This document shows positions 33,335-48,263 of a stretch of 64,000 bases of DNA, one piece after another. Under the pieces are notes generated by a model that worked only from the letters and a program-made list of their open reading frames with translations, did no database searches and was not told the origin of the DNA. The stretch's first letter is position 1. Each line of letters opens with the position of its first letter. The translations under genes were made by a program, and so were the position numbers. This stretch comes from a virus (lineage: Duplodnaviria > Caudoviricetes), in IMG/VR virus record IMGVR_UViG_3300029288_000071, positions 32,001 through 96,000 of that record. One strand, 5' to 3'.

Positions 33335-33408
33335 TAGGCCCAGAAGGTACCGCCCCTTCTCCTCCCGGTTAAAAGCCGGGTGCTTTCCACTATTAGAGCT
33401 TTGAGCCC
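33335..33408 (-). tRNA. tRNA-Lys(TTT), GGCGGUA T-loop
   Basis: CCCGG-CTTTTAA-CCGGG. Confidence 0.8.
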
Positions 33409-34396: not shown

Positions 34397-34468
34397 CAGA
34401 CCTAAGTGGTGCCGCCCCACTATCCCTTGGTTCAAAGCCAAGTGCTTCTACTGTTGAGCTATAGGTCC
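34397..34468 (-). tRNA. tRNA-Gln(TTG), GGCGGCA T-loop
   Basis: CTTGG-CTTTGAA-CCAAG. Confidence 0.78.
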
Positions 34469-34848: not shown

Positions 34849-35269
34849 GTTTATAGATATTTCTTAATTAAATATTTCTTATTTATTTTAAATTTTTTCA
34901 ATGTAGAATCTGGAACATCCCAAGGATATTCTAAAACTGGATATTTTTTTATACACATTACGATTTTACCACATTTGGGACATTTATGCTCATATCGAGC
35001 TAATTCTGCATCTGTTTTTTCCCATCCTGTATATTCTACAATACCTTTTTTACATTTTTCACATATCCAATCATGTGAAAACATTTTGAATAAAGAATAT
35101 TTATGCATTTTATTATTTTTCTTGTTTGTTATTTTTTATTTCAAGTTCAGCTTTTAATTTTCTATTTTCAACAAGCAAATCTCTAACTTGTTGAGCATAA
35201 TCAGCTCGAAGTTTCAGTTCTGCTTTAAGCTTTTCAATTTCTTCTTTGAGTTCAATAAAAGTCATTTTG

Positions 35270-35346
35270 TCCGCTCAGTTGGAGTTGAACCAACGTGTGA
35301 CCGTCTACCCTTTCAACGGCTTATCAGACCGAGGGGATATGAGCGG
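35270..35346 (-). tRNA. rearranged tRNA-like gene, Ile(GAT) anticodon
   Basis: Perfect acceptor and T arms; anticodon hairpin sits 5' of the GG-containing loop. Confidence 0.55.
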
Positions 35347-36208
35347 GTTTTTCAAGTTGTAAGCTGGATTGTTGTTTTATTTTTTATCAAATCAACAAGT
35401 TTATTTAATCTTTTCTGTTCTTTCTTTAATTCTGGCATTAATTTCATATTATGTCGTTTGTAAGATGCAAATGCTGTAGAAAGCCAGCTAATATCACTTT
35501 CATCATCAACTAATCTTGTTAAGACTTTAAGCTGTGATAACTCATTTAATGTAACTACTTCGCTATCTGAACAACCCCAACAAAAAGTATCACTACAACT
35601 TAATGTTAAGACAGGATTACTGTCATAGTAAATTGTTTTATCTTCTCTTTTAGCATTCCAATCAGATTCTTTTTTGCTTTTTACAATATGAATAAATAAT
35701 CCGTGATTTTTGAAAAATTCTAAAACTTCTTTTTCTTCATCTTTTAAAGAATTATACCATAATTCTAAAATAGCAGCTCTAGTTGTGATATCAGAATAAC
35801 ATGCATTCCAACCATCTTCCCATTTAGTTCTTTCTTTTGAAGATACTTCTTTACCTTTTTCATCAACTGTTGATGTTTTAGCTGGATATATTCCTGTTGT
35901 ATCTAAAACTTCTTCTAAAAAATTCATACATCATATCCTATCTTTTGCATTAATAATTCTATTTTCAAATCTTCATCTTTAATATCATTGATAGAAACTC
36001 TTTTTTGAGTTGCTGTTATTACACTTTGTTGAGTTCTTTGAATCTGCTTCACATATTTTTCTACGTATTTCGATAATTCCCTTGGTTTGAGATGACCAAC
36101 ATCTATATAATAGATTTTGCGCGAAGAATCAATTTTATGTTCATATAATTTGTTTTTATAAACTCCAGGAGTTTGAATTCCATTTAACATAAAAATTTTC
36201 CTTTTTTG

Positions 36209-36281
36209 TGGTGACTCTCGGTACCGCCCCGAGTTCTACGGTTCTTCAGACCGTCGCAATGGCTTCACCTGCTCAGTCACC
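36209..36281 (-). tRNA. tRNA-Phe(GAA), GGCGGUA T-loop
   Basis: ACGGT-CTGAAGA-ACCGT. Confidence 0.8.
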
Positions 36282-36878
36282 GTTTTTACTAAAACCATCT
36301 ACTGTATATCCTAATTTATACATTAAGTTTGTACAAGGATCTTCTAATAACTTATTTAATTTCTCTTGTTTTATAAAAATAGCTTCTCGTCTTATTTGTT
36401 CAGATTTTTGTTCAAAGAATATAGCAATTTCATCTTTATTTATACGATTATTTTTATAACCATTTAATGATACTGACCAATTTAATTCATAATTATCTGA
36501 AAAAGTGCATATAAACTTCAAATCTTCTAGATCACTTGAAAAACTAATAATTCTCCATTCAAATTTCAAGTTTGGAAATTCAGCTTTCATCATTTCTAAA
36601 ATTGATTTTTCAAAAATGGGCCAATCACAAAAATCATTAACATTTTTTGCATCATTCCAATATTTAGAAACAGTTTTTTCTTGTTGTCTTGTTAACCAAG
36701 CAATATGTGCTTTATCTTTTTTCATAACCCATCTTATACATTAACTGTTGTATAGGGTCAATTTCTTCAACAACTTCAACTTCTTCTCCAAGATAATATG
36801 GTTTTTTTAAAGAATTAAAAAAAATTGTTGGTTCAGTGCATTTTTTTAAATAATCATTGTATGTCATCTGTATCATAG

Positions 36879-36952
36879 TCGGTGTAGCTGGATTTGAACC
36901 AGCGATTTCTTGGTCCCAGGCCAAGCGGATTTCCGGGCTTTCCTATACACCG
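36879..36952 (-). tRNA. tRNA-Pro(TGG)
   Basis: C1-G72 cloverleaf. Confidence 0.85.
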
Positions 36953-37173
36953 TTTTTCTTCAAAAATTCAATTACATAATCATAATCTGTATGGGGTAAA
37001 TTACATTCACTACAATCTTTATTCCCATCTTCTGTCATAGAAAAATTACCACCGCAATTATAATAATCATACAAGGGACAGTAGCAGAACATGCAATTAA
37101 GTTGTGTAATTCCTTCATGACAAGGATAATATTCACATTCTGTATTACAAAAAAATCTTTTACTATTTTTCAT
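36943..37173 (-). CDS. cysteine-rich small domain protein
   Basis: FFCNTECEYYPCH...NCMFCYCPLY...CGG...DCSECNLPH. Confidence 0.75.
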   Translation of the reverse strand: MKNSKRFFCNTECEYYPCHEGITQLNCMFCYCPLYDYYNCGGNFSMTEDGNKDCSECNLPHTDYDYVIEFLKKNGV

Positions 37174-37175
37174 AG

Positions 37176-37246
37176 TAGCGCATAAGAGTGCCGCCCTCTT
37201 GTTTCCAGCTTGAGAAACTGGTATCTTTCTGTTCGATCAATGCGCC
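37176..37246 (-). tRNA. tRNA-Glu(CTC), GGCGGCA T-loop
   Basis: CCAGT-TTCTCAA-GCTGG. Confidence 0.75.
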
Positions 37247-37252
37247 AATTTG

Positions 37253-37441
37253 TTATAAGATAGTATTACCTTCTTTGATAATTTTTGAAATTTTATTTTT
37301 CAGATAATTGTTTTTGAAACGATATTTTTTTAAAATTCTACGTTCATGGTGATTTAGTCTATTACCTTTTCCCTTACCAATATAAAAAGGTATAGTTGGT
37401 GTTTTAGATGAACAAAGTTCATATGTATAATATTCATTCAT
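37253..37441 (-). pseudogene. truncated GIY-YIG-like endonuclease
   Basis: YYTYEL...PFYIGKGKGNRLNHH, ends at 62 aa. Confidence 0.55.
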
Positions 37442-37445
37442 TTTG

Positions 37446-37521
37446 TACTCCTAGAGAGATTCGAACTCTCATGATAACTTGTTTAGAAGACAAGTGACTT
37501 ATCCAATTAGTCCATAGGAGC
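37446..37521 (-). tRNA. tRNA-Arg(TCT)
   Basis: CTTGT-CTTCTAA-ACAAG. Confidence 0.87.
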
Positions 37522-37854
37522 ATTTAATAACCAATTCTCTTCATTAAAACTTCAATTGGATTGATAGTTATCTTATTATCTGTTTTAATGTGAAATTTAT
37601 TTATAAAATCCATATAATCAAATTTATCAGAACTATTTCGCAATTCATCAAGTCTTACATTTTCTACTTTAACTTGACCTTGATGTCCGTATCTATCTTT
37701 CGTCACATAGCATCTAATTTGAAGAATATGATCATTAGTTAGAGGTTGATATACATCTTGAATATCACCTACAAATGTAGCATATTCTATTTCTCTCTGA
37801 TCAAGTTTTTCTTGAACATGCCAGCATTCATGTATCTTCATCAGTTTCATTTTG

Positions 37855-37929
37855 TACCGTGTATGGGAGTCGAACCCATAATCTCCATCCTTGAAAGGGA
37901 GGTGTGCTTGGCCATTCCACTAACACGGC
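37855..37929 (-). tRNA. tRNA-Glu(TTC)
   Basis: Bulged anticodon stem, loop CTTTCAA. Confidence 0.78.
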
Positions 37930-38212
37930 ATAAATAAATTACTTAATGTGTTTAAACAATATTGATATTTTTTCTTTATCATTACTCTTTCCAACTACTT
38001 TATCGAAAAGTCTTCCTAAAACGCCTGGACGAGAAACAACAATAGTCATATTTTCAGCTAGATTTGTTCCTTGTAAATTAGTAATAAATTTTTCATCAAT
38101 TAAATTTGATAATATTATTTCTTTAACTAGATTTGCAAATCTAGTTAAATCTTCAGCATTGTAAATATATTCTGTTGTTACCATTTGTTCATTCCTTTTA
38201 TAATTGTTTTTG

Positions 38213-38298
38213 TCGGAGTGGAGAGATTCGAACTCTCAAGTTCAGTAATGACCGTGGTTCCAAGCCACGAGGGCTCCCAGCTACCCGCCTACACTCCG
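38213..38298 (-). tRNA. tRNA-Pro(TGG) with long variable arm
   Basis: CGTGG-CTTGGAA-CCACG plus extra arm. Confidence 0.75.
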
Positions 38299-38308
38299 AA
38301 TATTTTTG

Positions 38309-38383
38309 TGCTTCTATTGGGATTTGAACCCAAAGTCTTACGCATTAAAAGTGCGATGATTTAGCCAGTTAATCTATAGAAGC
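38309..38383 (-). tRNA. tRNA-Lys(TTT)
   Basis: CGCA-CTTTTAA-TGCG. Confidence 0.82.
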
Positions 38384-39091
38384 ATTTTTATAACCCATTT
38401 TCTTCATCAATATTCTTATAGGATCGGTTTCAATTTTAGATTTTATTTTTTTATTTTTATTTTCAGGATGATAATCAGGATGATATTTATGTGCTCTTAT
38501 CATTCCATCCCAAAAACCATCATTAACATAATCACGCCATTGCTGTTTAGTCATTGTGCTTCTTCACATCAAATTTTACTGTAAAATAACCACTAATAAA
38601 AGAACCTAAAACTGCTGGAATTAACATCCATTTGTTTTCAACATAACTTAAAATAACTCCTGCTCCCATTAACCAGAGTATTGCTCCAAAAATTGCTGAA
38701 CTAAGAGCTTTACCTTGAGCAGTTCTTCTCATCCATAATACCCAAAGAAATTCTGCAGTAGCAGTTAAAGTAAAAGCGATTATTGATTGTAAGATCCAAT
38801 TCATTTTTGAATAGCCTCAATTTGATCTGCAGTTGCTTCTAGTGAAATTTTTAGTTCAGGTCTAGCAGTATTAAAATAATGATTTCCAATTTGATGAAAA
38901 TTTGGATTACATTGTACATTCCATTGCAATAATCGAATATTTATCATTCTCCAAGCCATTAGATCTCTGAAAAAATCTCCAGTAAATTCTAAAGTTCCGA
39001 TTATAATTAGATCTTTTTCTTTATCAATGATAACATCAAATTCATCAGATTCAGCTTCATTAGTCATAAAATCATCTTTCTTATTTTTTTG

Positions 39092-39174
39092 CGGAGGATG
39101 AGGGACTTGAACCCCCACAACCCGAAGGTACTGGTTTTCAGGACCAGGGCGATACCGTTACGCTTTAATCCTCC
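39092..39174 (-). tRNA. tRNA-Ser(TGA)
   Basis: Type II, G73. Confidence 0.83.
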
Positions 39175-39869
39175 AAATTCTTATCAATCCCATCCATGAC
39201 ACCCACAATAAAATTCATCAAATTCTAAGCCGCCAACACAAGGTTCAAATTGCTTTCCATTATGTTCACATAAAGATTCCATTTTCTTTTTACTATTTTC
39301 GTAATAACCAGTTCCACCTTGAGATGGATGAGCATCAGCAAAATAGAAACAATTTTTACATTTAGATTCATATTTAGAACCTGGGCCTCTATATTCAAAA
39401 AATGCTAAATTTGGTGATGAATCTCTTTCACAAGTGCAAGTTGAACCACATTTTGAACATTCAGACTTATGAGTTTGTTTTCCATAAAAACCGCAGCGAG
39501 CCTTTCTGTTTTTAAGCAATTCTTCTACATTGTGTTCTGTATCAATTTCAAAACAAGAACAAATAACACAAGCAGGTTTGTTATTACTGATAGAATTAGC
39601 AATATGTCCGCATTTCATTAAAGGTTTATTCATATCCCATTTTTCTCATTAATGTAACTATTTCTGCTCCACCATGTCGTCTAATTTGATATGCTTCATG
39701 TAAAGCTTTGTAATTTTGTTGAACAGCAAATGTTGCTAAAGGATTTCCACAACAATGAACATTTAAAATACTTGATTTATATCTGTTTTTATAATTTCTT
39801 TTCCACCAAGCTTGTTCTTTATTCTGTTCTTTTTTCCATTGTTGTATGTCATAATTTATCATAAAGTAG

Positions 39870-39944
39870 TACCGATGTAGGGAGTTGAACCCTATATTTT
39901 TATAGATTATGATTCTATTGCACCAACCGTTATGCGCCATCGGC
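39870..39944 (-). tRNA. tRNA-Met(CAT), elongator or Ile2
   Basis: ATAGA-ATCATAA-TCTAT. Confidence 0.75.
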
Positions 39945-39953
39945 ATTTATTTG

Positions 39954-40025
39954 AGCCGAATACCTGAATCGAACAGGTGACTGAGCTTTACAGGAGCCCC
40001 ATTTTTCCGATTAAACTAATCCGGC
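39954..40025 (-). tRNA. tRNA-Thr(TGT)
   Basis: Cloverleaf. Confidence 0.83.
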
Positions 40026-40339
40026 AAAAATTATCTTTGTGTACCACATCTTTTACATTTACTTCCAAAGAATCCAAAAAAATGACCTCCATTATATTTT
40101 TTGTATTCATTTCCATCTTCCATTTTCTGATAACTAATCCAGCTTAAGTTTTTCTTTACAATAGCCATTTATAAAATGATTTCTTAAAAATAATTGAACA
40201 TTCCAAGCAACAGATTTATATAAACATTCTTTACATAAAAAATAATGATTCCCATTTTCATCAAATTCTTGAATCCAGTCAGGATCTTTTTGAAAATATC
40301 CCATTTTTATCATTAATATTTCTACTTCAGATTTCATTG

Positions 40340-40410
40340 AGCTCTATCTCGGTTACGCTCCGAATTTTGATCCTTACCAAAGATCTGTTCTGCTATTAAA
40401 CTAATAGAGC
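40340..40410 (-). tRNA. tRNA-Thr(GGT), AGCGUAA T-loop
   Basis: GATCT-TTGGTAA-GGATC. Confidence 0.75.
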
Positions 40411-40414
40411 ATTG

Positions 40415-40488
40415 TGCTCATTAAAGGATTTAAACCTTTGGTCTCTGTCTTGTTAGGGCAGCGCTTTCATCAGCTAAGCTAAATGAGC
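40415..40488 (-). tRNA. tRNA-Val(AAC)
   Basis: Loop CTAACAA. Confidence 0.75.
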
Positions 40489-40492
40489 AGTT

Positions 40493-40568
40493 TGGAGCGG
40501 GAAACGGGGCTTAAACCCGTGACCTCATGCTTGGCAAGCACGTGTTCTATCAACTGAACTATTCCCGC
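40493..40568 (-). tRNA. tRNA-Gly(GCC)
   Basis: GCGGGAA acceptor, encoded CCA. Confidence 0.88.
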
Positions 40569-40838
40569 AATAAATTTTTACAACAACTCCAGAAGTAATT
40601 TTACTGCTACTATCAATAAAGCATCCAGGTTCAACTTCATAACCCATTTTTTTCATCATTTCATTAATCTTGAATTCTTCACTAGTAAGATTTTTTATAT
40701 ACCAAACTGATTGATTCTTACTAATAGTTTCAAATTCATGTTCTTTAAAATTTGCTGAAGTATCTTCCATGGCTTAATCTAAAACATTTAATTGATTTTG
40801 TAAATAAAAATCTGGTGCATCTACTGAGAGTCGAACTG

Positions 40839-40910
40839 TGGATCCAAAAGGTACCGCCCCTTTTTCTGTAGTTTAAGAGACTACTGCATCACTGTTAATG
40901 CTTTGGATCC
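40839..40910 (-). tRNA. tRNA-Lys(CTT), GGCGGUA T-loop
   Basis: GTAGT-CTCTTAA-ACTAC. Confidence 0.8.
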
Positions 40911-40946
40911 TTTTTGCTTCATTTAAACAGTCTCTAATTTTTTAAG

Positions 40947-41029
40947 TGCGTATGGAAGGATTCGAACCTCCAATGTCCCTAAGGAGTCTGCTCTACAGGC
41001 AGGTGGGCCACCAGTTGCCCAACATACGC
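40947..41029 (-). tRNA. tRNA-Tyr(GTA)
   Basis: Type II cloverleaf. Confidence 0.83.
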
Positions 41030-41112
41030 ATATATGTCCACAATCTGATTTTGTTTCGTCATCATACCATTTAATTTGATCACATATTTCACATCTTATT
41101 AATTTTATCATG

Positions 41113-41192
41113 TGATCTCGAGGCGATTCGAACGCCTAATTGCAGCTCCAATTACGATTACTAGTTTCGAAGACTAGCTCGGCTACGAGACC
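41113..41192 (-). tRNA. rearranged tRNA-like gene, Arg(TCG) anticodon
   Basis: Same architecture as 35270-35346. Confidence 0.55.
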
Positions 41193-41196
41193 AAAG

Positions 41197-41280
41197 TGGC
41201 AGAGATGAGACTTTAACTCATATTGCTCAAGACTTATCTAGAAAGTTACTTAAGTGTTTTTTCTGTTAAACTACCCTGCA
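41197..41280 (-). pseudogene. degenerate tRNA-like sequence
   Basis: Acceptor, D and T remnants; disrupted anticodon arm. Confidence 0.4.
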
Positions 41281-41475
41281 TTTTAATAAATGGTTGCTTT
41301 AACATCATCAAAAGATGATCAAAAGTTATATGAGAAAAAGACATCCAACTATTTGATTTATCAAACGCAATACCATAAATTTTTCTTTTTGGAATTGAAC
41401 AAATTCCAGTACTTCTTAATAGATGCATTCCTAAAAGTTTGCTTATTGAGAATTTCTCTTTTTCTTTTTTCATAG

Positions 41476-47660: not shown

Positions 47661-47834
47661 GATAGATCTCCGTAAATAGCAGTCCCTGAGGATGGTATAT
47701 TTAGAATATACTTATGATAGCACTTTATAGGCGCCGTCACATCTTGCTCAGGATTTACCTGCTGAGTTGCTAAATAGCTAACTCATGTTTATTATATGTC
47801 AAAGAACCTTTAAGAGCAACATTCTAGCGAAATG

Positions 47835-48263
47835 TGGACCTGTGCGGATTCGAACCGCAGTGTTACTATAATTAAATCTGAATTTCTACAAGTTTATCTA
47901 ATTTTCCAGTGCGAAATTTGAGCTCGCAAAAATGTCTGGTACAAATTTGATATAGCAGAAAAATTAGAAAACTTACTATATCTCATCAAGTAATTTTTTA
48001 ATGAAGATCACTTGATAAGAACTTCAGACCTGAAACCAATTGCCGAGGACACCAGTTAGTCTACAAATTTTCGAAGTGGCTAACAACTACGTTACTAAAG
48101 CTTTTTAGGCTAAAGCAAATTCATTTTGAGAAACAAAAGCTAAAGCATCCTCAAAAGTGAAGGCAGATTTTTGTTCTGCATTTATGTTTTTAGATAAGTT
48201 TAAAGAGCTTCAAGCTCTACTTGCTATTCAGTTCGCTTATAATAGTCGATACCTTTCAGGCCC
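47835..48263 (-). ncRNA. ssrA: tmRNA
   Basis: 5' GGGCCUGAAAGGUAUCGAC, 3' T-arm + CAGGUCCA, G3.U70; tag AEQKSAFTFEDALAFVSQNEFALA* at 48105-48179. Confidence 0.9.

What the first reader, a model, noticed from the sequence alone, without database searches (positions are those of the whole stretch)
35270..41192. Two tRNA genes with the anticodon arm placed before the D-loop
Seen: 35270-35346 (GAU) and 41113-41192 (UCG) have intact acceptor stems and T arms, but after U8-A9 a short stem encloses the anticodon hairpin, and the D-loop-like GG segment (AGACGGU; AAUUGGA) follows on the 3' side. Both anticodons are missing from the canonical set in this window. Inference: topologically rewired but functional tRNAs, possibly evading host anticodon nucleases.
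Basis: partly seen in the sequence, partly recalled or inferred. Interest (0 to 1): 0.78.

Follow-up and report, generated by a model that had tools for sequence, protein, structure and literature searches.

The report
Rewired phage tRNAs for Ile and Arg
The two loci belong to a large, virus-restricted group of isoleucine and arginine tRNA genes whose anticodon arm comes before the D-loop instead of after it; standard tRNA finders miss this layout and I found no description of it.

Summary
Window 35270-35346(-) (anticodon GAU) and 41113-41192(-) (UCG) have a 7-bp acceptor stem, U8-A9 and a canonical T arm. They have no D hairpin. A short covarying stem right after U8-A9 leads into the anticodon hairpin, and a D-loop-like UA..GG segment follows it before the T arm.

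ARAGORN and Rfam miss both at window scale. With lax filters the Rfam tRNA model reaches 29-34 bits only by deleting the D arm.

Both loci belong to large viral families: hundreds of IMG/VR contigs, Streptomyces, Rhodococcus, Pseudomonas and Maribacter phages, and crAss-like phages. The elements are always unannotated.
- 95-98% of cells in the proposed helices are paired, with many compensatory changes.
- A Levitt-like R:Y pair covaries in the Ile family.
- Anticodons are only Ile (GAU/UAU/CAU) or Arg (UCU/UCG/ACG/CCU). A structure-only scan gave 241 such RNAs and 3 artefacts.
- Arg types always carry A after GG, the position of the ArgRS determinant A20.
- The genes sit co-oriented inside tRNA arrays, encode CCA where their neighbours do, and usually complement the ordinary anticodon set.

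Best reading: functional decoding tRNAs with a permuted D/anticodon domain, charged by host IleRS and ArgRS. Expression and charging are untested. The nuclease-evasion idea is untested.

The parts
35270..35346 (-). Rewired tRNA-Ile(GAU), 77 nt, family 1
   Evidence: Model R1 scores 90 bits, E 2e-23. Sequence. Not called by ARAGORN. Rfam tRNA reaches 29.1 bits only with the D arm deleted.
35340..35346 (-). Candidate 1, acceptor stem 5' strand (positions 1-7); pairs with 35271-35277 (positions 70-76). Discriminator A77 is at 35270.
   Evidence: All 7 pairs covary in the family and 97.8% of cells are paired. A77 is invariant.
35334..35336 (-). Candidate 1, enclosing stem 5' strand (positions 11-13, CCC); pairs with 35308-35310 (positions 37-39, GGG). 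It stands in the place of a D stem.
   Evidence: 11:39 is CG27/AU11/UA1. 12:38 is CG25/UA9/AU2/GC2/UG1. Cells are 100% paired. Both are among the top mutual-information pairs.
35317..35331 (-). Candidate 1, anticodon hairpin: stem 16-19:27-30 and loop CUGAUAA (35321-35327). Anticodon GAU is at 35323-35325.
   Evidence: All 4 stem pairs covary. U33, A35, U36 and A37 are invariant in the 39-sequence alignment. Read directly.
35295..35307 (-). Candidate 1, D-loop-like segment UAGACGGUCACAC (positions 40-52). A41 is like A14, G42 like R15, G45G46 (35301-35302) like G18G19, C52 like Y48.
   Evidence: U40, A41, G45, G46 and U47 are invariant. Pair 42:52 covaries as A:U 90 and G:C 33, like the Levitt pair.
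35278..35294 (-). Candidate 1, T arm GUUGG-UUCAACU-CCAAC (positions 53-69)
   Evidence: Four of 5 pairs covary. The G at the loop-proximal end of the stem's 5' strand, the UUC and A of the loop, and the first C after the loop (canonical G53, T54-Psi55-C56, A58, C61) are invariant.
41113..41192 (-). Rewired tRNA-Arg(UCG), 80 nt, family 2
   Evidence: Model R2 scores 91.6 bits, E 5e-21. Sequence. Not called by ARAGORN. Rfam tRNA reaches 34.4 bits only with the D arm deleted.
41182..41183 (-). Candidate 2, outer 2-bp helix 5' strand (positions 10-11, GC); pairs with 41145-41146 (positions 47-48, GC). It encloses the anticodon arm and the GG segment.
   Evidence: 10:48 is AU20/GC17/UA3, 100% paired. 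11:47 is CG37/UG3.
41179..41181 (-). Candidate 2, enclosing stem 5' strand (positions 12-14, CGA); pairs with 41155-41157 (positions 36-38, UCG).
   Evidence: 13:37 is GC32/AU6/CG1/UA1. 14:36 shows 5 standard pair types (30 of 40 cells paired, 10 not). 12:38 is invariant CG.
41160..41178 (-). Candidate 2, anticodon hairpin: pair 15:33, stem 16-20:28-32, loop CUUCGAA (41166-41172). Anticodon UCG is at 41168-41170. An AA bulge follows at 41158-41159.
   Evidence: All stem pairs covary. Read directly.
41147..41154 (-). Candidate 2, D-loop-like segment UAAUUGGA (positions 39-46). G44G45 are at 41148-41149. A46 (41147) is at the place of A20.
   Evidence: The segment is invariant in the 40-sequence alignment, whose search pattern fixed it. 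A follows GG in 47/47 Arg-type RNAs and in 0/194 Ile-type RNAs.
41121..41137 (-). Candidate 2, T arm AGGCG-UUCGAAU-CGCCU (positions 56-72). It is preceded by a 7-nt variable-like linker at 41138-41144.
   Evidence: Four of 5 pairs covary. In some relatives the linker is expanded to a long extra arm.

Best explanation
Both loci are genuine tRNA genes, tRNA-Ile(GAU) and tRNA-Arg(UCG), of a virus-restricted lineage whose D/anticodon domain is permuted.

The chain runs: acceptor 5' strand, U8-A9, one strand of a short D-stem-like helix, the anticodon hairpin, a purine-rich bulge, the other strand of that helix, a D-loop-like UA..GG segment, a short variable-like linker, the T arm, and the acceptor 3' strand.

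Shown: this secondary structure is conserved and covaries, and the nucleotides that build the canonical tRNA core are kept. These are U8, an A14-like A, a covarying R15:Y48-like pair, G18G19-like GG, and an ordinary T loop.

Inferred:
- The short helix stacks on the anticodon stem as a D stem does, and GG docks on the T loop, so the molecule keeps an L shape despite the different backbone path.
- It is cut out of the tRNA-array transcript by RNase P and 3' processing, and given CCA by the host.
- It is charged by host IleRS or ArgRS through the anticodon, through A73 (Ile types) and through the A20-like base (Arg types).
- It decodes AUU/AUC and CGA/CGG for an AT-rich phage that carries no other tRNA with these anticodons.

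The Ile and Arg forms probably share one origin. UAU and UCU differ by one base, and the two models cross-detect each other's family.
For: Structure:
- 98.1% and 95.5% of cells are paired, 17/19 and 20/23 pairs show double changes, and 0/500 shuffles reach the observed scores. Slid controls give 35-48% paired.
- An unbiased mutual-information scan ranks exactly these helices on top, plus 42:52 in family 1.
- RNAalifold predicts the same folds on its own.

Identity:
- With anticodon-free search patterns, family 1 carries UAU 90, GAU 42, CAU 8. Family 2 carries only UCU/UCG/ACG/CCU.
- A structure-only descriptor over about 4 Mb finds 244 unique RNAs: 194 NAU, 47 Arg, 3 artefacts. The same loci hold 1,357 ordinary tRNAs for all 20 amino acids.
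- At least 38 anticodon changes occur on a tree, and none leaves the Ile/Arg sets.
- The base after GG is A in 47/47 Arg types and U or C in 194/194 Ile types. A20 is the established ArgRS determinant (textbook knowledge).
- The discriminator A is invariant in family 1.

Gene behaviour:
- ARAGORN calls only 7 of 222 copies.
- 121 of 222 lie within 100 nt of an ordinary tRNA, and 198/198 with a tRNA within 2 kb are on its strand.
- CCA follows the discriminator in 44/241 copies, against a chance expectation of about 4. It tracks the neighbours' convention: 11/14 versus 9/121, Fisher p 1e-8.
- Where an ordinary tRNA for the same amino acid is present in the locus, the anticodon differs in 52 of 61 cases.
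- In Streptomyces phage CeilingFan, the annotated tRNAs between 44 and 133 kb cover all 20 amino acids but Ile only as UAU. The unannotated element supplies GAU.
- In the window's phage, AUU+AUC are 69% of Ile codons, and no other GAU or UCG tRNA exists.

The hosts of cultured carriers span Actinomycetota, Bacteroidota and Pseudomonadota.
Against: - There is no direct evidence of transcription, processing, CCA addition, charging or decoding. No RNA run holds the stretch.
- The L-shaped fold is inferred, not modelled. For family 2 the outer helix 10-11:47-48 (RNAalifold extends it to 8-11:47-50) is hard to reconcile with a canonical U8:A14 layer, so the two families may differ in their core.
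- The A-after-GG coupling rests on about 4 switches on a weakly supported tree, only 1 of them on a supported branch.
- The loci were gathered with patterns taken from Ile-type and Arg-type bodies. Rewired tRNAs for other amino acids with very different sequences could have been missed outside those loci.
- The phage encodes no IleRS, ArgRS or CCA-adding enzyme, so everything depends on host enzymes accepting an unusual substrate.
Confidence: 0.72

Rival explanations
1. These are tRNA-like decoys or antidotes rather than decoders. The RNA presents an Ile or Arg anticodon stem-loop and a tRNA-like acceptor/T domain to soak up or block a host tRNA-targeting toxin or defence nuclease, or to regulate a synthetase, without taking part in translation.
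For: - The fold is virus-restricted. All 30 genuine hits in 185,579 species genomes are on MAG contigs, most inside dense, phage-like tRNA arrays, and none is in an isolate.
- Only two amino-acid identities occur.
- Phage tRNAs are known to counter tRNA-targeting defences (PMC10264068, PMC11464382, PMC11555353).
Against: - A decoy has no need for an invariant A73, an A20-like base tied to Arg anticodons, a CCA encoded in step with neighbouring genes, or anticodons that avoid duplicating the ordinary set.
- Within one body type the anticodon wanders among synonymous anticodons of both Arg codon boxes. That fits decoding needs rather than mimicry of one target.
- In CeilingFan it is the only Ile(GAU) in an otherwise complete tRNA set.
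Confidence: 0.15
2. These are functional decoders whose rewired core was selected because it escapes a host or phage enzyme that recognises the normal D arm or elbow of tRNA-Ile and tRNA-Arg. Mechanistically it adds to the best explanation rather than replacing it.
For: - The fold is restricted to viruses and to two identities.
- It persists across phages of several bacterial phyla.
- Some carriers also encode tRNA repair enzymes, RNA ligase and polynucleotide kinase.
Against: - The anticodon loops are ordinary, so nucleases that read the loop would still cut.
- No linked defence or counter-defence gene was found. The neighbouring ORFs have no family matches.
- No experiment bears on it.
Confidence: 0.25
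3. These are decayed tRNA pseudogenes, or a different tRNA-like RNA class such as a Y RNA partner of Ro.
For: - tRNA finders miss them.
- Streptomyces phage CeilingFan encodes a Ro-like protein 6 kb away.
Against: - Pseudogenes do not keep 95-98% pairing with compensatory changes across phages of different phyla.
- The window's phage has no TROVE/Ro gene.
- The Rfam Y-RNA model does not match either locus.
- A 7-nt loop with U33, R37 and amino-acid-specific anticodons is not a Y-RNA feature.
Confidence: 0.03

Closest known systems
Canonical bacterial and phage tRNA-Ile and tRNA-Arg (cloverleaf, Rfam RF00005)
   Same: 7-bp acceptor stem, U8-A9, 7-nt anticodon loop with U33 and A37, 5-bp T stem with a UUCRA T loop, GG for the elbow, an R15:Y48-like covarying pair, discriminator A73 (Ile), an A20-like base (Arg), total length 77-80 nt, and placement in tRNA arrays.
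   Different: No D hairpin lies between position 9 and the anticodon arm. The anticodon arm comes first, and the D-loop-like segment follows it and runs straight into the T arm. The Rfam model can align these RNAs only by deleting its 15 D-arm positions.
D-armless mitochondrial tRNAs, e.g. metazoan mt-tRNA-Ser(AGY) and nematode mt-tRNAs (PMC7609411, PMC4013460)
   Same: There is no D hairpin 5' of the anticodon arm, and the anticodon-side helix is extended.
   Different: The mitochondrial forms are shortened. They replace the D arm with a floppy connector and lose the GG/T-loop elbow contacts. The phage RNAs are full length, keep the GG, the canonical T loop and a Levitt-like pair, and occur in phages of bacteria rather than in organelles.
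Permuted tRNA genes of Cyanidioschyzon merolae (PMC3728597)
   Same: The order of tRNA parts along the DNA differs from the standard order.
   Different: In the alga the 3' half precedes the 5' half in the gene, and processing restores a normal cloverleaf. Here the gene ends form the acceptor stem, and the permutation lies inside the mature molecule.
Candidate tRNA-like structured RNAs from an IMG/VR-wide survey (PMC10690425)
   Same: That survey lists viral RNA motifs that only sometimes overlap ARAGORN calls, including tRNA-Arg and tRNA-Asp calls. ARAGORN also mis-called some of my family-2 members as Arg, Asp or unknown, so the families may be in that catalogue.
   Different: The paper gives no topology, anticodon or identity analysis. 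[quoted passage not shown] Its tables are not held here, so the overlap could not be checked.
Phage tRNAs that evade tRNA-targeting defences (PMC10264068, PMC11464382, PMC11555353)
   Same: Phage-encoded tRNAs that supplement or replace host tRNAs during infection.
   Different: In those cases ordinary cloverleaf tRNAs evade defences through anticodon-loop or sequence changes. Here the loop is ordinary and the core wiring is changed.

Membership tests
tRNA (functional class) | 7-bp acceptor stem closed by the 5' and 3' ends, with a discriminator base | tested here: met
   All 7 pairs covary in both families and about 98% of cells are paired.
tRNA (functional class) | T arm with a 5-bp stem and a T-Psi-C-type loop (G53, U54, U55, C56, A58, C61) | tested here: met
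   These positions are invariant in the two alignments, whose search patterns fixed most of them. The stems covary.
tRNA (functional class) | Anticodon hairpin with a 7-nt loop, U33 and a purine at position 37 | tested here: met
   The loops are CUGAUAA and CUUCGAA. Family 1 has 4 Watson-Crick pairs plus U.U. Family 2 has 5-6 pairs.
tRNA (functional class) | 3' CCA end, encoded or added | tested here: inconclusive
   The window copies are followed by CAA and CAU, not CCA. In the family CCA is encoded in 44/241 copies and follows the neighbours' convention, p 1e-8. Addition in vivo was not tested.
tRNA (functional class) | Aminoacylation and decoding on the ribosome | not testable with these tools
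   Only indirect evidence exists: identity-restricted anticodons, the A20-like base, A73, and complementarity with the ordinary tRNA set.
Canonical cloverleaf tRNA (Rfam RF00005) | D arm (3-4 bp stem closing a GG-containing loop) between position 9 and the anticodon arm | tested here: not met
   Only 6 nt lie between A9 and the anticodon stem. The Rfam alignment deletes model positions 10-24.
Canonical cloverleaf tRNA (Rfam RF00005) | Score at or above gathering (29 bits) in a normal scan | tested here: not met
   Neither locus is reported at window scale even at E<=10. They reach 29.1 and 34.4 bits only when about 100 nt are scanned alone. Ordinary tRNAs here mostly score 40-66 bits.
D-armless mitochondrial tRNA | Loss of D-loop/T-loop elbow contacts, shortened molecule, organellar origin | tested here: not met
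   GG and the canonical T loop are invariant in the alignments (the search patterns fixed them), a Levitt-like pair covaries, the length is 77-80 nt, and the context is viral.
Permuted tRNA gene (circular permutation at gene level) | The 3' half is encoded upstream of the 5' half, and the acceptor stem is not formed by the gene termini | tested here: not met
   The acceptor stem is formed by the first and last 7 nt of each gene.
Bacterial/phage Y RNA (YrlA) tRNA mimic | Partner Ro/TROVE protein; a long Ro-binding stem instead of an anticodon arm; match to RF02553 | tested here: not met
   The genome has no TROVE gene. RF02553 does not match either locus. A true anticodon loop is present.

The most novel reading that the evidence does not exclude
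A natural internal circular permutation of the tRNA core has spread among phages of many bacterial phyla as a working alternative tRNA architecture. It was selected because Ile and Arg decoding (mostly the rare AUA and AGA codons, plus AUU/AUC and CGN) then no longer depends on a feature of ordinary tRNAs that hosts, rival phages, or the phage's own host-shutoff enzymes attack or modify. In effect the phage brings a defence-proof, partly orthogonal tRNA.
Probability: 0.25. Interest if true: 0.95.

Novelty: new variant of a known kind. Interest (0 to 1): 0.86.

Why it matters
The cloverleaf order of arms is among the most conserved features in biology. Known exceptions are shrunken organellar tRNAs or changes in stem length.

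A full-length tRNA in which the anticodon arm and the D-loop have swapped places would show that the L shape can be built with a different backbone path. These RNAs keep the core tertiary nucleotides, and host enzymes across several bacterial phyla would have to accept them.

Practical consequences:
- Standard annotation misses a tRNA gene in many phage genomes. In some phages it is the only decoder of a major codon, which distorts analyses of phage tRNA sets and codon use.
- The fold gives structural biologists and synthetic biologists a new natural scaffold for orthogonal tRNAs.
- Carriers that can be grown in the laboratory already exist (Streptomyces BE-cluster phages, PA11-like Pseudomonas phages, a Bacteroides crAss-like phage), so every prediction is directly testable.

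Tried and rejected
- No RNA holder listed. The only full holder of window 35100-41400 is a landfill metagenome, probably the source. This says nothing about expression.
- Megablast of the region against GenBank phages found no match.
- Shared synteny was rejected. In Streptomyces phages the element follows a nucleotidyltransferase gene, but the window's upstream 191-aa ORF is unrelated to it.
- The neighbouring small ORFs have no confident Pfam or PHROG matches; the only Pfam hits fall below the curated cut-offs.
- The genome has no phage-encoded IleRS, ArgRS, CCA-adding enzyme or Ro protein.
- The Y-RNA, tmRNA, intron-containing tRNA and gene-level permuted tRNA readings were rejected on structure.
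- The independent-pairs test of the Arg/A-after-GG coupling has too few events to be significant: 4 switches, 1 on a supported branch.
- No pair of sequences at least 90% identical differs in its anticodon, so recent switches were not caught.
- Seven literature searches and two papers read gave no description of this fold. The supplementary tables of PMC10690425 are not held.
- BLAST from further representatives adds few cultured carriers, because it is insensitive for 77-nt RNAs.
- I had no tool for RNA 3D modelling. The L-shape argument is reasoning from strand polarity and conserved tertiary positions.

Full report
**The observation**

The window is bases 32001-96000 of a 207 kb IMG/VR virus record, 29% G+C and about 91% complete. 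All tRNA genes that ARAGORN finds in the genome lie in one minus-strand array inside the window. ARAGORN finds 27. The Rfam tRNA model adds about seven more, plus two weak tRNA-Sec-model hits and the 3' part of a tmRNA.

Neither tool reports anything at 35270-35346 or 41113-41192, even at E<=10. Read on the minus strand, both stretches nevertheless have these features:
- a perfect 7-bp acceptor stem;
- U8-A9;
- a 7-nt anticodon-type loop, CUGAUAA or CUUCGAA;
- a textbook T arm;
- a discriminator A.

Only 6 nt separate A9 from the anticodon stem. The stretch between the anticodon stem and the T stem is 22-23 nt long and contains GG. Each element fills the gap between its neighbours almost exactly, with 1-5 nt spacers to the flanking small ORFs or to the next tRNA.

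**It is not a standard cloverleaf**

I scanned about 100 nt around each locus alone, where Rfam's filters are laxest. The tRNA model reaches 29.1 and 34.4 bits against a gathering score of 29. Ordinary tRNAs in this window mostly score 40-66 bits. The alignments delete all 15 D-arm positions of the model and treat the GG segment as an 18-19 nt insertion in the variable loop.

**Relatives**

A sensitive BLAST found unannotated look-alikes of candidate 1 in these phages:
- about 42 Streptomyces BE-cluster phages;
- Rhodococcus phage Peregrin;
- the crAss-like Kehishuvirus 'tikkala' of Bacteroides, where it fills a tRNA-sized gap between tRNA-Trp and tRNA-Met;
- a faecal virus.

Look-alikes of candidate 2 occur in PA11-like Pseudomonas phages, where the element ends in an encoded CCA. 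One also lies in Maribacter phage Panino, in a gap between tRNA-Val and tRNA-Met.

An anticodon-free family-2 pattern gave 54 contigs.

In 185,579 species genomes the family-1 pattern gave 81 hits. Only 30 have a tRNA-like acceptor stem. All 30 are on MAG contigs, most inside dense co-oriented tRNA arrays of up to 22 tRNAs in 8 kb. None is in a cultured isolate. On this sampling the fold is virus-restricted.

**Structure**

I aligned 39 and 40 diverse representatives, capped at 80-85% pairwise identity. Both alignments are ungapped.

| Measure | Family 1 (Ile) | Family 2 (Arg) |
|---|---|---|
| Cells paired under the proposed structure | 98.1% | 95.5% |
| Pairs with changes on both sides | 17 of 19 | 20 of 23 |
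| Shuffles reaching the observed score | 0 of 500 | 0 of 500 |

When the 3' partners are slid by 1-3 columns, only 35-48% of cells are paired.

The unusual helices are among the best supported.
- Family 1, 11:39: CG 27, AU 11, UA 1.
- Family 1, 12:38: CG 25, UA 9, AU 2, GC 2, UG 1.
- Family 2, 10:48: AU 20, GC 17, UA 3.
- Family 2, 13:37 and 14:36 also covary, although 14:36 is unpaired in 10 of 40 sequences.

A mutual-information scan over all column pairs puts exactly these helices on top. It adds one tertiary pair in family 1, 42:52 (A:U 90, G:C 33), which behaves like the Levitt pair R15:Y48. RNAalifold independently returns the same structures.

These positions are constant in the two alignments, though my search patterns themselves fixed the GG segment and the T loop: U8, A9, a UA before the GG, the GG itself, and the T-loop/T-stem positions G53, U54, U55, C56, A58 and C61.

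**How the wiring differs**

In a normal tRNA the chain runs: 8-9, D-stem 5' strand, D loop, D-stem 3' strand, position 26, anticodon arm, variable loop, T arm.

Here it runs: 8-9(-10), one strand of a 3-bp helix, the anticodon arm, a purine-rich bulge (UUGAAA in candidate 1, AA in candidate 2), the other strand of that helix, the UA..GG segment, a short linker, and the T arm.

The strand that leaves the short helix into the A14-like, R15-like and G18G19-like bases runs from the anticodon side towards the elbow, as the normal D-stem 5' strand does. The strand that enters from U8-A9 runs down into the anticodon stem, as the normal D-stem 3' strand does. The helix can therefore stand in for a D stem with the same polarity, and the conserved tertiary nucleotides can make their usual contacts. 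This step is inference.

Family 2 has an extra 2-bp helix, 10-11:47-48, which RNAalifold extends to 8-11:47-50. Its place in three dimensions I cannot settle.

**Evidence that they are working tRNAs**

1. *Identity is conserved, not the anticodon sequence.*
   - With search patterns that leave the anticodon loop free, family 1 carries UAU 90, GAU 42 and CAU 8. Family 2 carries only UCU, UCG, ACG and CCU, Arg anticodons from both codon boxes.
   - Covariance models R1 and R2 were applied to loci fetched for the other family. They found further diverged sub-families, some with a long extra arm, again carrying only Ile or Arg anticodons.
   - A structure-only descriptor over about 4 Mb found 244 unique RNAs: 194 NAU, 47 Arg and 3 parse artefacts. 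The same loci hold 1,357 ordinary tRNAs for all 20 amino acids.
   - On a tree built with the anticodon masked there are at least 38 anticodon changes, and none leaves the Ile/Arg sets. The tree is weakly supported.
2. *Arg types carry the A20-like base.* The base after GG is A in 47/47 Arg types and U or C in 194/194 Ile types. This is the position of A20, the established ArgRS identity element. The coupling rests on only about 4 switches, 1 of them on a supported branch.
3. *The discriminator is an invariant A in family 1*, as in tRNA-Ile.
4. *They sit in tRNA arrays.* Of 222 copies, ARAGORN calls only 7. More than half lie within 100 nt of an ordinary tRNA, and all 198 with a tRNA within 2 kb share its strand.
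5. *CCA follows the local convention.* CCA follows the discriminator in 44 of 241 copies, where chance predicts about 4. It is present in 11 of 14 copies whose neighbours encode CCA, against 9 of 121 whose neighbours do not (Fisher p 1e-8).
6. *Anticodons complement the ordinary set.* Where an ordinary tRNA for the same amino acid is in the locus, its anticodon differs in 52 of 61 cases.
7. *It fills a gap in a curated genome.* In Streptomyces phage CeilingFan the annotated tRNAs between 44 and 133 kb cover all 20 amino acids but Ile only as UAU. The unannotated element provides GAU.
8. *It fills a gap in the window's phage.* AUU+AUC are 69% of Ile codons and CGA is 10% of Arg codons. No other GAU or UCG tRNA exists in the genome.

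**What is missing**

There are no expression or charging data. No RNA run holds the stretch. The phage encodes no IleRS, ArgRS, CCA-adding enzyme or Ro protein, so host enzymes would have to accept the RNA. The window copies are followed by CAA and CAU rather than CCA.

The counter-defence idea is untested. The anticodon loops are ordinary, whereas published evasion works through anticodon-loop changes (PMC10264068).

**Origin**

R1 and R2 detect each other's family at 25-47 bits. The motif UA-N-..-GUAAUUGG is shared. Some Arg types have a family-1-like body and some Ile types have a family-2-like body. UAU and UCU differ by one base. A single origin followed by a few identity switches is the simplest reading, and it is inference.

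**Novelty**

Seven full-text searches, the main review of non-canonical tRNAs (PMC7609411, which mentions neither phages nor viruses), and the mitochondrial literature gave no description of this arrangement.

An IMG/VR-wide survey of candidate structured RNAs (PMC10690425) lists motifs that only sometimes overlap ARAGORN tRNA-Arg or tRNA-Asp calls. It says they may be tRNA-like. These may include family 2, but no structure or identity analysis is given and its tables are not held here.

I class the finding as a new variant of a known kind: tRNAs with a new topology. The secondary-structure family is essentially certain. Function as charged decoders is likely, about 0.7. The selective reason is open.

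Noticed in passing
window 33335-33408, 34397-34468, 40839-40910 (minus strand): These tRNAs are found by Rfam (38-44 bits) but not by ARAGORN. They carry a non-canonical T loop, GGCGG(U/C)A, instead of UUCRANY, and a D loop without GG (AACAGU or AAUAGU). Their anticodons read UUU, UUG and CUU. Another first-reader note (e1-5467749) lists five such tRNAs.
   Followed up: partly
window 41197-41280 (minus strand): This tRNA-like gene lies 4 nt upstream of candidate 2. It has a normal D arm and T arm, but 19 nt where the 7-nt anticodon loop should be (Rfam 32.2 bits). It may be an intron-like insert or another odd tRNA.
   Followed up: partly
window 37854-37929 (minus strand): ARAGORN calls tRNA-Leu(CAA) with the anticodon at position 37. 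The loop reads CUUUCAA, which with a bulged stem would give UUC (Glu). No other Glu tRNA was listed for this genome.
   Followed up: no
window 38212-38298 (minus strand): An 87-nt 'tRNA-Pro(UGG)' by ARAGORN scores only 24.7 bits with Rfam, over model positions 10-63. It is an unusually long second Pro gene beside a normal one at 36878-36952.
   Followed up: no
window 47832-48000 and beyond (minus strand): The 3' part of a phage-encoded tmRNA (Rfam RF00023, model positions 186-374, E 1e-8) lies at the end of the tRNA array.
   Followed up: no
L152:5764-5853, L233:936-1025, L338:4368-4457, L170:10358-10448, L213:6850-6936: These are rewired tRNA-Ile(UAU) and tRNA-Arg(UCG) variants of 87-91 nt. 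They carry an extra hairpin between the GG segment and the T arm, at the place of a class II variable arm.
   Followed up: partly
L455/L456 (Streptomyces phage CeilingFan, PV165877.1): This carrier phage also encodes a Ro-like RNA-binding protein, an RNA ligase, a polynucleotide kinase, a small nucleotidyltransferase next to the rewired tRNA, and a tmRNA. Together these form a sizeable RNA repair and quality-control kit.
   Followed up: no
L350 (IMG/VR copy of a 49,639-bp PA11-like Pseudomonas phage); L008, L009: In these roughly 50 kb podophages no annotated tRNA lies within 1.5 kb of the rewired tRNA-Arg(UCU), which ends in an encoded CCA. In some GenBank records it is overlaid by a 'hypothetical protein' or 'homing endonuclease' CDS.
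   Followed up: partly
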